From NCBI RefSeq assembly GCF_056712565.1, contig NZ_CM160072.1: a stretch of DNA of 64,000 nt; one strand, written 5' to 3'. Of the stretch, positions 18,001-21,000 are shown piece by piece; the stretch's first letter is position 1, and each line of letters opens with the position of its first letter. Position numbers: made by a program.

Positions 18001-21000
18001 CTGACCAAAACCTAAAGGTGCTTTCCCGAATGAAAACAGCCTGTTGAAGCTACTTTATCTGGGACTGATGAACGCACAGGAGAAATGGACAATGCCCATC
18101 CAAAGCTGGAATTTGACATTGTCGCAGTTAGCCATTTATTTTGAAGGGCGGCTGAATAATGTGATGACGCTGTAGAATTTTTAACGTGACACAGAATTCT
18201 GAACGCTCTCAAATTAAAATCATCGATATTTAACAAGTTTAAATTATTAAGATTATTTTAATCAAGATTAAAAGCATTACAACCTGGAAACTGACATTAC
18301 TGATTACTACACTGGTACCTGAGGCTCACGGCCTCAGGTTGTCTTTATATACTCTCAGAAGGATACTCTTACATTAGCCCAATAACGGCGTCCTTCATCG
18401 ACCTGCCAGTTACCATCAATGGTATCGATATCCTCGCTCTTTCTGTCTGTGACGTTAAGAACGGCAAAATTAATCAGCGTGTCTGGCAGAATCAGGTAAT
18501 TTAGACCAATATCCATAGATGTGAATCCATTACGAACGCGGGGAACCTTAGCACCATTTCTTTGTGCTGCCCAGATTTGTTTTCCCGTATAATTCAGAGA
18601 TGAATAAAATGTAATATCCTGAGTGTAATCCCATTCCAGTTTTGCATTGGCTGCATGTCTGGGAGTTCTTTCCAGAGGTTCCCCTTTCAGCGACTTGCCA
18701 TTGAGACTTTCGTCATCACTTTTTCGACGAGAGTCAGTAAATGTATAGTTTGCAGATACATGCCATTTATCATACACAGGAATCTGAGTTGCAAGCTCCA
18801 CCCCTCTGATATTTGCCTCACCTACATTATCATAAATAAAAGTGTTTAACCCGGTGACTGGATCTTTTGTACCTATATCGTAACTGGTCAACTTATTTTT
18901 AAAATCAGTATTAAACAGCGTCGCGCTCGCCGAAAAACCACTATCATTACTATAAATAATACCGATCTCTTCGGTTACACTGGTCTCCGGTTTCAGGTCC
19001 CTGTTTCCATACATAATAGAGGCACCACCCTGCGTCAGTGTTCCAAATCCAGGACTCACCTCACGAATTGAAGGAGCCCGAAATGCTTTTGCGATCCCCC
19101 CTTTGAGTGTGAGATTATCGGTCAGGTTATAAACAGCGTACAATCTTGGATTCCAGTAACTGCCATAGATTTCATGATTATCGAGACGCAGTCCTCCAGT
19201 CAGGGCGAGAGAATCCGTTGCTGCATATTCATTTTCTATAAAAACAGCTTTCTGTTTAATTGAAACAGACTGTGTTTCTGTCGTTTTTTTACCCGTGGCT
19301 GAGTCATCACGGAGCTCTGCATGCTGAAATTGACCTCCGATGGTCAGTACATTTTCCGGCAGAAATGCCGTCACTTTTGCATCTATGATTGTGTTGGTTA
19401 TTTCCGGTTTTCTTGACTCGTAATTAAGATCCCAATGATTATATTTATCTTTTTTACCTGATTTAACCTCACGAATAACTTTCTCCTGATAAACAGCAAT
19501 TTCAGGATGCAGTATTTCGCCCTGGGCATTCCATGCTGCTACCCAGTGACTACGTGAATTATGCGTTTCTCTTTTACTGTTTGGTTGTTTAAGATTTCCC
19601 CGCATAGTCCAGGCATCGAGAGACTCACCTGGTGTTAATGTATGCACCTGGTTATTTTTTCCATATTCAAAAACAAACTTCTGGCTTTCAGTCGGAGTAA
19701 ACTGGAGCGTTGCCGTTATATTCTTATTATCTTTTGCCGGTGTTCCCTGAGAGATACTATCTTCCTTGCGATAGTTCATTCCTCCATATAGCTGAAGACC
19801 AAGTTTATCCTTAATCAATGGGCCTGACAGATAGAAGTCATTTGTGGTTGAGTTACCAAATTTCCCATGTTCCTGAATAATCCCCCCAAGTCCAAGTACG
19901 CCATCCCATGTTTGGTTATTAACTGGTTTGGTTATGATATTAATGACCCCTCCGATGGCATCAGAACCATACAGGGAAGACATAGGGCCACGGATCACTT
20001 CAATGCGTTCAATTGCTTCCACAGGAGGGATAAATCCGGCTTCAAAACCGCCGCTGCCGTTTGGTCTGGATTCCCGACCGCTCTGACGTCGTCCATCGAC
20101 CAGAATCAGCGTGTAATCGCCACTTAGACCACGTATACTGATATCCGGTTTTTCATTCCCACCAGTGATACTAATCCCTTCAACATCTTTTACTGCATCG
20201 ACCAGATCTGAAACCGGTTTTTTTTGCAGTTGTTCTGAAGTAATGACTGAGACACTGGCCGGGGCATTTCTGAGCTGCTGAGTGAACCCGGAGGCAGTAA
20301 CAACAAGCGTATCTTCTTTTTTATCAGAACTGGCATAACCTGATGATATAACTGCAGAACACATCACGGCAATGCCCGGAGCAATGATATATTTGTTCTT
20401 CATAAATTTCCCTTTGCCAAAGGCGTAATGATAATGATTTGCGTTAGCAAAGAGGAAATTTACAATGAACAGAAAAGAAGGTAAATCACATTTCGCTCAT
20501 TCAGTTAATATTTTCGAATAATTTCCTGAACATGCCAGACTTGATGAGAACAGCAGAACAGCAGAACAGCCCCTTTCTCCGGGGAACTCTTTACTACATA
20601 ATTTATAGTCCTGTCGAAGATGTAAGCTCTTTCATCTGGATATCTCCATCAACAACATTCCAGTAGAGCACACGAGAGCGACAGGGGACTGGCGTTATTT
20701 ATTACGGTATGCTTGTCTGATTTGGTAGAAAATAAAAATGGGCGACTGACCAGATATGGGAGTCTCCGGTCAGTCATTCGCTTGTAGATGCAGGACATAA
20801 GCGAACCAGGGCCCACTGCTTGTGCGCAAAAGCAAGGAGAGTTTACCCTAGCAGATTGAGTTACACCAGATCATCACCTCACTGACCAGTCAGAAATTCC
20901 GACTCATCTTCCACCACTAAACCTGCTCCATCCCAGTCCTGAACCTTCCCTCGCCAGCAGCCAGGATCGTACGGTTCACCACCATCCTCTTCCGTGAATG

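What the first reader, a model, noticed from the sequence alone, without database searches (positions are those of the whole stretch)
18355..20442. ireA siderophore receptor with a Fur-box-like site, flanked by IS debris
Seen in sequence: a 682-aa TonB-dependent receptor preceded by a 14-of-19 Fur-box match; IS256-family and IS629 remnants lie on its 3' side. Established knowledge: IreA is an iron-regulated virulence-associated receptor of extraintestinal E. coli. Known biology, but it anchors the strain type.
Basis: partly seen in the sequence, partly recalled or inferred. Interest (0 to 1): 0.3.

Follow-up and report, generated by a model that had tools for sequence, protein, structure and literature searches.

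The report
Known iron-regulated receptor gene ireA
This is an intact copy of ireA, a well-studied iron-repressed outer-membrane receptor gene of extraintestinal pathogenic E. coli, with its published Fur repressor site, so the finding is correct but ordinary.

Summary
Window 18355-20403 (minus strand) is an intact 682-aa TonB-dependent receptor. It matches NCBI's IreA equivalog model end to end (1518 bits, cut-off 1197). Its DNA is 100% identical to annotated ireA of S88 and ATCC 11775. Iha-like, FepA and CirA models all fall below their cut-offs.

The Fur box is real. That 19-mer, GCTAACGCAAATCATTATC, is the motif reported inside the Fur ChIP-seq peak at ireA in CFT073. There ireA RNA rises about 39-fold in a fur mutant. 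The box is invariant in six E. coli upstream variants, and a Fur box sits at a similar position in a Proteus and a Salmonella homologue.

One detail is wrong. The IS629-type element (15706-17015) is a complete 1310-bp copy, not a remnant. Only the IS256-family element (about 17016-18209) is debris.

ireA alone does not fix the strain type, because it occurs in 341 of 5426 complete genomes. The flanking K1 capsule locus and 99.98% identity to S88 place the window in the described CC95 pheV island.

The IreA ligand is still unknown. This is already known biology of low interest.

The parts
18355..20403 (-). ireA coding sequence, 682 codons plus stop; intact
   Evidence: ORF list. NCBIfam NF010011 IreA equivalog, 1518.5 bits against a cut-off of 1197, full length. 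Pfam Plug and TonB_dep_Rec_b-barrel domains. 100% DNA identity to annotated ireA of S88, ATCC 11775 and others.
20332..20403 (-). Predicted signal peptide, residues 1-24 (MKNKYIIAPGIAVMCSAVISSGYA)
   Evidence: Read from the translation. Residue 3 of the crystallised CirA chain 2HDF aligns with IreA residue 27. If that chain starts at the mature N-terminus (my assumption), mature IreA starts at about residue 25. Inference, not tested with a signal-peptide predictor.
20293..20313 (-). TonB box, residues 31-37 (DTLVVTA)
   Evidence: Aligns with ETMVVTA near the N-terminus of CirA (2HDF) in the phmmer alignment. That this CirA segment is its TonB box is from my own knowledge. A GST pull-down of IreA with TonB is published for strain DE205B.
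19945..20274 (-). Plug (cork) domain, residues 44-153
   Evidence: Pfam PF07715, E = 1.1e-28.
18358..19782 (-). Beta-barrel domain, residues 208-682, ending in the C-terminal Phe (..VRVSF)
   Evidence: Pfam PF00593, E = 3.2e-53, residues 208-651. The CirA alignment runs to residue 678. The terminal F is read from the translation.
20424..20448 (-). Fur operator: two overlapping 19-bp registers 6 bp apart (20430-20448 at 15/19, 20424-20442 at 14/19), at -45 to -21 from the ATG
   Evidence: Consensus scan. The 19-mer GCTAACGCAAATCATTATC is the motif listed inside the Fur ChIP-seq peak at CFT073 ireA (table legends), and CFT073 carries the identical sequence. The 26-nt block TGCTAACGCAAATCATTATCATTACG is invariant in six E. 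coli upstream variants while both flanks vary. Fur-box matches lie at similar positions in the Proteus and Salmonella homologues.
20409..20414 (-). Shine-Dalgarno-like AAGGGA, 5 nt upstream of the ATG
   Evidence: Read from the sequence. Inference.
20457..20485 (-). Candidate core promoter A: TTTACC, 17-nt spacer, TAAATT (8/12 to consensus). It would place the Fur box just downstream of the transcription start.
   Evidence: Relaxed hexamer scan. The standard scan (9/12 or better) found nothing here. The start site is not mapped, so this is tentative.
20428..20458 (-). Candidate core promoter B: TTTCCT, 19-nt spacer, TATCAT (8/12). Its -10 hexamer would lie inside the Fur box.
   Evidence: Relaxed hexamer scan. 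Tentative.
20394..20471 (.). Extended imperfect palindrome with 31-nt arms, centred on the Fur box. As RNA it is a 27-bp hairpin whose 3' arm covers the Shine-Dalgarno sequence and the AUG.
   Evidence: Inverted repeat I2. RNA fold of -28.8 kcal/mol, z = -6.8. No compensatory changes among the E. coli variants. Not conserved in the Proteus or Salmonella homologues and weak in NCTC9112. Significance unknown.
18317..18339 (.). GC-rich 10-bp hairpin 16 nt downstream of the ireA stop codon; probable transcript end or stabiliser
   Evidence: The terminator scan calls it only on the + strand, where a T-rich tail follows. On the ireA strand the hairpin forms (region -21 kcal/mol, z = -3.7) but has no U-tract.
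18210..21072 (-). Core ireA unit shared with the most divergent chromosomal context (STEC1585, 92% identity): gene plus 145 bp downstream and 669 bp upstream
   Evidence: blastn of the window against L005. In that strain the flanks are a YadA-like gene and an IS110-family element.
17016..18209 (+). IS256-family element remnant: transposase pseudogene, cut at its 5' end by the IS629-type element, with a frameshift and an internal stop
   Evidence: Pfam Transposase_mut on two ORF fragments. NCBIfam transpos_IS256, 197 bits. PGAP pseudogene in S88 and ATCC 11775. The right end, about 18209, is inferred from where STEC1585 homology starts.
15706..17015 (-). Complete IS3-family element of the IS629/IS1203 group, 1310 bp: orfA 16635-16961, orfB 15748-16635, ALIL frameshift pseudoknot 16564-16680, terminal inverted repeats TGAACCGCCCCGGG
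   Evidence: Sequence. Inverted repeat I1. Rfam RF01497, 120.9 bits. PGAP intact transposase with a programmed frameshift. 96-97% identity to plasmid copies annotated as IS1203 family. No target-site duplication: the flanks are AAC and ATC.

Best explanation
The region is a functional copy of ireA. The gene encodes a 22-strand-type TonB-dependent outer-membrane receptor of the CirA/IrgA-like branch of ferric-siderophore transporters. Its transcription is repressed by Fe2+-Fur.

Proposed mechanism:
1. When iron is sufficient, Fur dimers occupy the overlapping hexamer array at -45 to -21 from the ATG. This array overlaps or directly abuts the core promoter and blocks transcription.
2. When iron is scarce, as in urine or blood, Fur releases the DNA and ireA is strongly induced.
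3. The pre-protein is exported through Sec (signal peptide, residues 1-24). [quoted passage not shown]
4. Its TonB box (DTLVVTA) couples it to TonB-ExbBD to import an iron chelate. The ligand has not been identified. By homology it is most probably a catecholate.

Shown here: gene identity and intactness, domain architecture, sequence identity of the operator to the ChIP-seq-supported CFT073 site, and conservation of the operator.

Taken from papers: Fur binding and derepression, TonB interaction, iron induction, and the protective-antigen and fitness roles.

Inferred: the promoter position, the signal-peptide cleavage site and the ligand class.

The gene travels as a unit of about 2.9 kb. In this lineage it is embedded in the pap-ireA-K1 capsule island at pheV, with IS elements on its 3' side.
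For: - Family assignment: NF010011 IreA equivalog at 1518.5 bits (cut-off 1197), covering 1-682 of 682 positions. Plug and barrel domains are present.
- The DNA is 100% identical to annotated ireA in S88, ATCC 11775 and many other ExPEC genomes. ireA is present in 341 of 5426 complete genomes.
- The closest solved structure is CirA (2HDF/2HDI), E = 2.8e-103, aligned over residues 27-678. DTLVVTA aligns with CirA ETMVVTA. tblastn identity to cirA is about 36%.
- The Fur box scores 15/19 and 14/19 in two registers 6 bp apart.
- In CFT073 the same 19-mer is the FIMO match within the Fur ChIP-seq peak (height 1485). ireA RNA changes 39-fold in the fur mutant, 1-fold in the ryhB mutant and 45-fold in the fur ryhB double mutant. 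The protein rises 185-fold.
- The CFT073 and window sequences are identical over the operator.
- All 341 ireA-positive genomes keep the proximal 100 bp or so. 297 of them keep it at 99% identity or better.
- The operator block is invariant in divergent alleles while the flanks vary.
- Fur-box matches at similar positions occur in the P. mirabilis homologue (16/19, -55 to -37) and the S. salamae plasmid homologue (15/19, -48 to -30).
- IreA-TonB pull-down and 6.5-fold iron-depletion induction are published for an O2:K1 APEC strain.
- Vaccination with IreA protects mice, and the same paper cites earlier work that an ireA deletion lowers fitness in the mouse urinary tract.
Against: - No transport substrate has been shown for IreA in any paper I could search.
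- In APEC DE205B, deleting ireA increased total cellular iron rather than lowering it, which the authors explain by compensation. The same authors report an adhesion role.
- No promoter of 9/12 or better is detected upstream, and the transcription start is unmapped. How the operator interferes with RNA polymerase is therefore inferred.
- The consensus match by itself is not rare in this window.
Confidence: 0.95

Rival explanations
1. IreA here works mainly as an adhesin or colonisation factor, with iron transport vestigial. Iha, another iron-regulated receptor, is described in these papers both as an enterobactin receptor and as an adhesin.
For: The DE205B authors state that their earlier work showed a role of ireA in adhesion. 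In their hands the ireA mutant did not lose iron uptake. No ligand is known.
Against: Every transporter feature is intact and conserved: TonB box, plug, barrel and Fur control. IreA binds TonB in a pull-down. An adhesion role does not exclude transport.
Confidence: 0.12
2. The receptor belongs to another named family (Iha, FepA, CirA or IroN) and was mislabelled as IreA.
For: It shares the general catecholate-receptor fold and is about 36% identical to CirA.
Against: Every other NCBIfam model scores far below its cut-off: CirA 397 against 745, FepA family 260 against 493, PRK13486 378 against 924. The IreA model scores 1518 against 1197. The DNA is 100% identical to annotated ireA.
Confidence: 0.01
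3. The Fur-box-like sequence is a chance AT-rich match, and the iron response of ireA is indirect.
For: Matches of 14/19 or better occur at about ten loci in the 64-kb window. One is an intragenic 16/19 match.
Against: The identical 19-mer lies in a Fur ChIP-seq peak, with 39-fold derepression that is independent of RyhB. The block is invariant across divergent alleles while its flanks vary. Fur-box matches at similar positions occur in homologues at 56% and 72% protein identity.
Confidence: 0.03
4. The palindrome around the Fur box is a functional RNA hairpin. It would silence translation of read-through transcripts that enter from upstream, so that only transcripts started at the Fur-controlled promoter inside the hairpin are translated. 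This resembles the fold-back inhibition described for IS10 and IS50 transposase mRNAs (from my own knowledge).
For: The hairpin has 27 bp, -28.8 kcal/mol and z = -6.8. Its 3' arm covers the Shine-Dalgarno sequence and the AUG. Both candidate promoters would start transcription inside it.
Against: There are no compensatory substitutions, and the substitutions that occur break pairs. The hairpin is weak in NCTC9112 (z = -1.5) and absent in the Proteus and Salmonella homologues. The transcription start is unknown.
Confidence: 0.1

Closest known systems
IreA of E. coli CFT073 (c5174) and of CP9, S88 and APEC O1
   Same: Same gene. The window is 99.1% identical in DNA to CFT073 over 15705-23208 and identical across the Fur box and proximal promoter. 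It is 100% identical to S88 ireA. The IS256-family pseudogene and the IS629-type element on the 3' side are also shared with CFT073.
   Different: Island location differs: pheV next to the K1 capsule locus here and in S88, but pheU next to papG-II in CFT073. The window has three copies of GCTGTTCT upstream where CFT073 has two. CFT073 carries a different protein accession (WP_000792545 against WP_000792544), so the proteins are not identical.
CirA (colicin I receptor, catecholate receptor; PDB 2HDF/2HDI)
   Same: Closest solved structure, E = 2.8e-103, aligned almost end to end. The TonB-box segment, plug and barrel are conserved, and the family is Fur-regulated.
   Different: Only about 36% identity. 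IreA scores 397 against the CirA cut-off of 745. The external loops diverge, with several gaps in the barrel alignment. Ligand and colicin specificity are not transferable.
Proteus mirabilis IreA homologue
   Same: 679 aa, 56% identity over 99% of the length. A Fur-box match of 16/19 lies at -55 to -37 and shares the core AATCATT(A/C)TCATTAC with E. coli.
   Different: It is chromosomal in Proteus and has no palindrome or hairpin around the box. I did not test whether it passes the IreA equivalog cut-off.
Canonical E. coli Fur box (GATAATGATAATCATTATC)
   Same: 15/19 and 14/19 matches in overlapping registers 6 bp apart, as expected for a hexamer array. The site lies within 45 bp of the start codon.
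   Different: It is weaker than the sites of chuA, hma and iroB listed in the same ChIP-seq table (FIMO p = 0.00057 against 0.00004-0.0002). The upstream half (GCTAACGCA) is degenerate.
IS629 / IS1203 (IS3 family)
   Same: 1310 bp, the same terminal repeats, orfA/orfB with a -1 frameshift and the ALIL pseudoknot. 96-97% identity to copies annotated as IS1203 family.
   Different: No 3-bp target duplication. One side abuts a truncated OLD-family nuclease gene and the other a truncated IS256-family element. I did not compare it with the ISfinder reference sequence.

Membership tests
IreA (NCBIfam NF010011, equivalog) | Full-length match above the curated cut-off, and better than to any sister receptor model | tested here: met
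   1518.5 bits against a cut-off of 1197, covering 1-682 of 682 positions. The next best model scores 559.6 bits, below its own cut-off of 927.
IreA (NCBIfam NF010011, equivalog) | Near-identity to the experimentally studied ireA alleles (CFT073 c5174, APEC/NMEC ST95) | tested here: met
   100% DNA identity to S88 and ATCC 11775 ireA. 99.1% identity to the CFT073 region.
TonB-dependent outer-membrane transporter | N-terminal plug domain plus C-terminal beta-barrel | tested here: met
   PF07715 at residues 44-153 and PF00593 at residues 208-651. End-to-end alignment to the CirA structure.
TonB-dependent outer-membrane transporter | TonB box near the mature N-terminus | tested here: met
   DTLVVTA (residues 31-37) aligns with ETMVVTA of CirA. 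That the CirA segment is its TonB box is from my own knowledge.
TonB-dependent outer-membrane transporter | Physical and functional dependence on TonB | not testable with these tools
   A GST pull-down with the TonB C-terminal domain is published for IreA of DE205B. No uptake assay exists.
Siderophore receptor (functional class) | A defined iron-chelate ligand that is bound and imported | not testable with these tools
   No ligand is reported in the searchable literature. A catecholate is inferred from homology only.
Fur regulon operator | Match to the 19-bp Fur consensus in the 5' regulatory region | tested here: met
   15/19 at 20430-20448 and 14/19 at 20424-20442. P = 0.001-0.009 in shuffles of the 100-bp upstream segment.
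Fur regulon operator | Overlap with the core promoter or transcription start | tested here: inconclusive
   Only 8/12 promoter candidates are found. Both would put the box on or just after the promoter, but the start site is unmapped.
Fur regulon operator | Conservation of the site among alleles and orthologues | tested here: met
   A 26-nt block is invariant in six E. coli variants with variable flanks. Fur-box matches at similar positions occur in the Proteus and Salmonella homologues.
Fur regulon operator | Fur occupancy in vivo and fur-dependent expression | not testable with these tools
   Published for the identical sequence in CFT073: ChIP-seq peak height 1485 and 39-fold RNA derepression in the fur mutant.
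IS629/IS1203 (IS3 family) | Complete element: both terminal repeats, about 1310 bp, orfA/orfB with frameshift signal | tested here: met
   15706-17015 is 1310 bp. The arms are 78% complementary over 41 nt with identical TGAACCGCCCCGGG tips. ALIL pseudoknot at 120.9 bits. transpos_IS3 at 314.5 bits. It is therefore not a remnant.
IS629/IS1203 (IS3 family) | Identity to the reference element high enough to carry the name IS629 | tested here: inconclusive
   96-97% identity to plasmid copies that PGAP labels IS1203 family, and 94-95% to others. The ISfinder reference was not available.
IS629/IS1203 (IS3 family) | Flanking target-site duplication from simple insertion | tested here: not met
   The flanks are AAC and ATC. 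The left flank differs between this window and CFT073, which points to a rearrangement at the IS.
IS256 family | Mutator-type transposase homology | tested here: met
   PF00872, E = 8.5e-42 and 1.4e-9 on two fragments. NF033543 at 197 bits.
IS256 family | Intact transposase and both ends | tested here: not met
   The reading frame is split. PGAP notes a frameshift and an internal stop. The 5' part is replaced by the IS629-type element.
   PRK13486 scores 378 against 924, FepA family 260 against 493 and 252 against 583, and CirA 397 against 745.

The most novel reading that the evidence does not exclude
Two readings beyond the textbook one are not excluded.

First, the 78-bp palindrome centred on the Fur box may be functional. 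It could be an RNA fold-back that hides the ribosome-binding site on read-through transcripts, which would insulate this mobile cassette from foreign upstream promoters. Alternatively it could be an extended operator.

Second, IreA's unknown ligand may be something other than an E. coli-made catecholate, for example a host- or microbiota-derived chelate.

Neither reading has direct evidence. The hairpin shows no covariation and is absent from distant homologues.
Probability: 0.1. Interest if true: 0.35.

Novelty: already known. Interest (0 to 1): 0.08.

Why it matters
IreA is an established fitness factor and a protective vaccine antigen of uropathogenic E. coli. Confirming it here helps annotate the window as the pap-ireA-K1 capsule island at pheV that is typical of the invasive CC95 lineage. 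Nothing about the gene or its Fur control in this window goes beyond published work. The real open question is which iron chelate IreA imports, and sequence analysis cannot answer it.

Tried and rejected
- The original 2001 description of ireA (PMC98753) is not held in the library. I could not check what Fur box or promoter it reported.
- The standard promoter scan found no site of 9/12 or better upstream of ireA. Only 8/12 candidates came out of a relaxed scan.
- Rfam gave nothing in or near ireA. The only hits in the window were the IS3 ALIL pseudoknot and the capsule JUMPstart element.
- I tested the hairpin around the Fur box for conservation. It showed no compensatory changes and was absent or weak in divergent alleles and in the Proteus and Salmonella homologues. 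I do not claim it as a functional RNA.
- Literature searches for an IreA ligand (catecholate, cefiderocol, DHBS and similar terms) found speculation only.
- The intragenic 16/19 Fur-consensus match at 57435 did not occur as an exact string in the CFT073 ChIP-seq supplement. I did not pursue it further.
- I did not run the large genome contigs or metagenome scans, the protein-database searches or structure prediction. The identification was already unambiguous and these would not have changed the verdict.
- Short + strand ORFs inside ireA (52-86 aa) have no support, and I treated them as spurious.
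Full report
**1. What is in the sequence**

The stated interval holds one long ORF on the minus strand, 18355..20403. It has 682 codons, an ATG start and a stop codon at 18355-18357.

The product has an N-terminal Plug domain (residues 44-153) and a TonB-dependent beta-barrel domain. Against NCBIfam it matches the curated equivalog model 'IreA family TonB-dependent siderophore receptor' (NF010011). The match runs from the first residue to the last and scores 1518.5 bits against a cut-off of 1197. All other receptor models are far weaker and below their own cut-offs:

| Model | Score (bits) | Cut-off (bits) |
|---|---|---|
| IreA (NF010011) | 1518.5 | 1197 |
| PRK13483 | 560 | 927 |
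| CirA | 397 | 745 |
| PRK13486 | 378 | 924 |
| FepA family | 260 | 493 |

The 2.5-kb region is 100% identical in DNA to PGAP-annotated ireA in S88, ATCC 11775, PA45B, MS7163, several APEC strains and others. ireA occurs in 341 of 5426 complete E. coli genomes, at 358 chromosomal and 15 plasmid places.

The closest solved structure is the colicin I receptor CirA (2HDF), E = 2.8e-103. In that alignment IreA DTLVVTA (residues 31-37) lies opposite CirA ETMVVTA, which I know to be CirA's TonB box. If the 2HDF chain starts at the mature N-terminus, mature IreA begins at about residue 25. Identity to cirA is about 36%. The protein ends in Phe.

**2. The Fur box**

Scanning with GATAATGATAATCATTATC gives two overlapping registers 6 bp apart:
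- 15/19 at 20430-20448 in gene sense (GCTAACGCAAATCATTATC).
- 14/19 at 20424-20442 on the + strand.

Together they span -45 to -21 from the ATG.

On statistics alone this is modest evidence. About ten loci in the window reach 14/19 or better, and an intragenic site at 57435 reaches 16/19. Of all 100-bp windows in the sequence, 1.3% contain a match of 14/19 or better. Shuffling the 100 bp upstream of ireA gives P = 0.009 for 14/19 or better and P = 0.001 for 15/19 or better.

What settles the question is outside evidence. Banerjee et al. [quoted passage not shown] Their figures for ireA are:
- ChIP-seq peak height: 1485.
- RNA fold change: 39.4 in the fur mutant, 1.0 in the ryhB mutant and 45.3 in the fur ryhB double mutant.
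- Protein: 185-fold up.

Their FIMO table gives the motif inside that peak as GCTAACGCAAATCATTATC. That is exactly the 19-mer found here. CFT073 and the window are identical across this stretch.

**3. Conservation of the box**

All 341 ireA-positive genomes retain the proximal 100 bp or so upstream of the ATG, 297 of them at 99% identity or better. Only about 192-195 retain sequence further upstream. ECGC74, for example, has an IS2 copy starting at the equivalent of window 20505. The functional control region is therefore likely to lie within the last 100 bp.

I aligned six upstream variants, including the divergent STEC1585 and NCTC9112 alleles (the latter 86.7% identical over 120 bp). The 26-nt block TGCTAACGCAAATCATTATCATTACG is invariant, while positions immediately on either side vary.

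Two more distant homologues also carry Fur-box matches at similar positions:
- P. mirabilis homologue (56% protein identity): 16/19 at -55 to -37.
- S. salamae plasmid homologue (72% identity, apparently disrupted): 15/19 at -48 to -30.

**4. Promoter, leader and terminator**

No promoter of 9/12 or better lies upstream. A relaxed scan gives two 8/12 candidates:
- TTTACC, 17-nt spacer, TAAATT (20485-20457).
- TTTCCT, 19-nt spacer, TATCAT (20458-20428).

Either would put the Fur array on or just after the promoter. The transcription start is unmapped, so this step is inference.

AAGGGA (20414-20409) is a plausible Shine-Dalgarno sequence.

A 10-bp GC-rich hairpin (18317-18339) follows the stop codon. 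On the ireA strand it lacks a U-tract.

**5. Flanks**

That is half right.

The IS256-family element (about 17016-18209, + strand) is debris. It consists of Mutator-type transposase fragments. PGAP annotates it as a pseudogene with a frameshift and an internal stop. Its 5' part is missing.

The IS3-family element (15706-17015) is a complete 1310-bp copy. It has both terminal repeats (TGAACCGCCCCGGG...), orfA, orfB and the ALIL frameshift pseudoknot at 120.9 bits. PGAP annotates its transposase as intact with a programmed frameshift. It is 96-97% identical to plasmid copies labelled IS1203 family. To my knowledge IS1203 and IS629 are close isoforms.

The element has no target duplication. Its left side abuts an OLD-family nuclease gene that lacks its first 138 or so profile positions, and that gene's frame runs open up to the IS end. 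CFT073 shares the IS, IS256-remnant and ireA arrangement but has papG-II on the far side of the IS. The IS therefore marks a rearrangement breakpoint.

The minimal unit shared with the most divergent context (STEC1585, 92% identity) is 18210-21072.

**6. Context and strain type**

Window 1-44154 is 99.977% identical to S88. The gene order is as follows:
- pgtPCBA genes; the pap operon lies just upstream of the window start in S88
- IbrA/IbrB-like genes
- truncated OLD-family nuclease
- IS629-type element and IS256-family remnant
- ireA
- YagK/YfjJ-family gene
- CP4-like genes, including cbtA/cbeA
- kpsFEDUCS-neu-kpsMT (K1 capsule, 36005-52098, with a JUMPstart element at 52067-52105)
- gsp genes

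This is the published PAI-S88-pheV, listed as carrying Hek, P pilus, IreA and K1 capsule (PMC7545054). It is also the island next to kpsF that carries ireA and papGII in 80% of K1 CC95 isolates (PMC10272209).

ireA alone does not define a strain type, given its spread over STEC, plasmids and many hosts. The combination of ireA with these neighbours does.

**7. Function and what remains unknown**

Published work shows the following:
- IreA binds TonB, and ireA is induced 6.5-fold by iron depletion (PMC6979363).
- ireA is strongly up-regulated in vivo, immunisation with IreA protects mice, and the paper cites earlier work that deleting ireA reduces urinary-tract fitness (PMC2736566).

No ligand has been identified. 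A catecholate is the best guess from the CirA/IrgA-type homology. An adhesion role has also been reported.

**8. An unplanned observation**

The Fur box sits at the centre of a 78-bp imperfect palindrome with arms at 20441-20471 and 20394-20424. As RNA this folds into a 27-bp hairpin (-28.8 kcal/mol, z = -6.8) whose 3' arm covers the Shine-Dalgarno sequence and the AUG.

The evidence does not support a conserved function. There are no compensatory changes among the E. coli variants. The hairpin is weak in NCTC9112 and absent in the Proteus and Salmonella homologues. I record it as unexplained. A fold-back that blocks translation of read-through transcripts is possible but unsupported.

**9. 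Verdict**

The IS629-type element is complete, and strain typing rests on the context rather than on ireA alone. This is already known biology of low interest.

Noticed in passing
window 20394-20471: A 78-bp imperfect palindrome is centred on the Fur box. As RNA it forms a 27-bp hairpin (-28.8 kcal/mol, z = -6.8) whose 3' arm covers the ireA Shine-Dalgarno sequence and AUG. It shows no covariation and is not conserved in the Proteus or Salmonella homologues.
   Followed up: partly
window 20547-20570: The tandem octamer GCTGTTCT is present in three copies about 145-165 bp upstream of the ireA ATG. Among ireA-positive complete genomes, 94 match the three-copy form exactly. 81 match in the 90-95% identity band; the rows listed from that band, including CFT073 and APEC O1, are 8 bp shorter, as expected for two copies. 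The divergent STEC-type allele has one copy. Any effect on expression is unknown.
   Followed up: partly
window 14129-15705 (- strand): An OLD-family (ATPase plus TOPRIM) nuclease gene matches the PADLOC Old profile only from position 139 onward. Its frame stays open up to the left end of the IS629-type element, so the gene is truncated at its 5' end by the IS. PGAP nevertheless annotates it as an intact 'ATP-dependent nuclease'.
   Followed up: partly
window 15703-15708 and 17013-17018: The complete IS629/IS1203-type element has no target-site duplication (flanks AAC and ATC). Its left flank differs between this window (OLD nuclease) and CFT073 (papG-II). The IS is therefore a recombination or deletion breakpoint between island variants.
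   Followed up: partly
window 20404-20505, compared with locus L007 (ECGC74) 6025-6218: All 341 ireA-positive complete genomes keep the proximal 100 bp or so upstream of the ATG, but only about 192-195 keep the sequence further upstream. ECGC74 has an IS2 copy there. This suggests the promoter and operator lie within the last 100 bp.
   Followed up: partly
window 57435-57453: A 16/19 match to the Fur consensus (GATACTGATAATCATTGCC) lies inside a gsp-region ORF (57319-57801, - strand). It scores better than the ireA box but is intragenic. It does not occur as an exact string in the CFT073 Fur ChIP-seq supplement.
   Followed up: partly
window 11375-13155 (- strand): An IbrA-like PAPS-reductase/DUF3440 gene (410 aa) is followed by a frameshifted IbrB-like gene, with a PerC-family regulator gene nearby according to the S88 annotation. 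PADLOC gives only weak BrxP and DndC hits.
   Followed up: no
window 23530-24405 (+) and 24402-25355 (-): Two convergent ORFs of 291 and 317 aa have no Pfam or PADLOC hit. They are conserved together with the ireA module in CFT073 (99.9% identity). Their function is unknown.
   Followed up: no
window 36005-52105: A complete K1 (polysialic acid) capsule locus is present (kps region 1, neu genes, kpsMT), with a JUMPstart element at 52067-52105, followed by gsp type II secretion genes. This identifies the window as the pheV/K1 region of a CC95-like ExPEC strain that is 99.977% identical to S88 over 44 kb.
   Followed up: partly
locus L012 (S. enterica subsp. salamae plasmid CP053317.1) 1474-3514: An IreA homologue (72% identity) on an IncFIB plasmid appears to be split into ORFs of 460 and 148 aa, so it is probably a pseudogene. 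It still has a 15/19 Fur-box match upstream.
   Followed up: no
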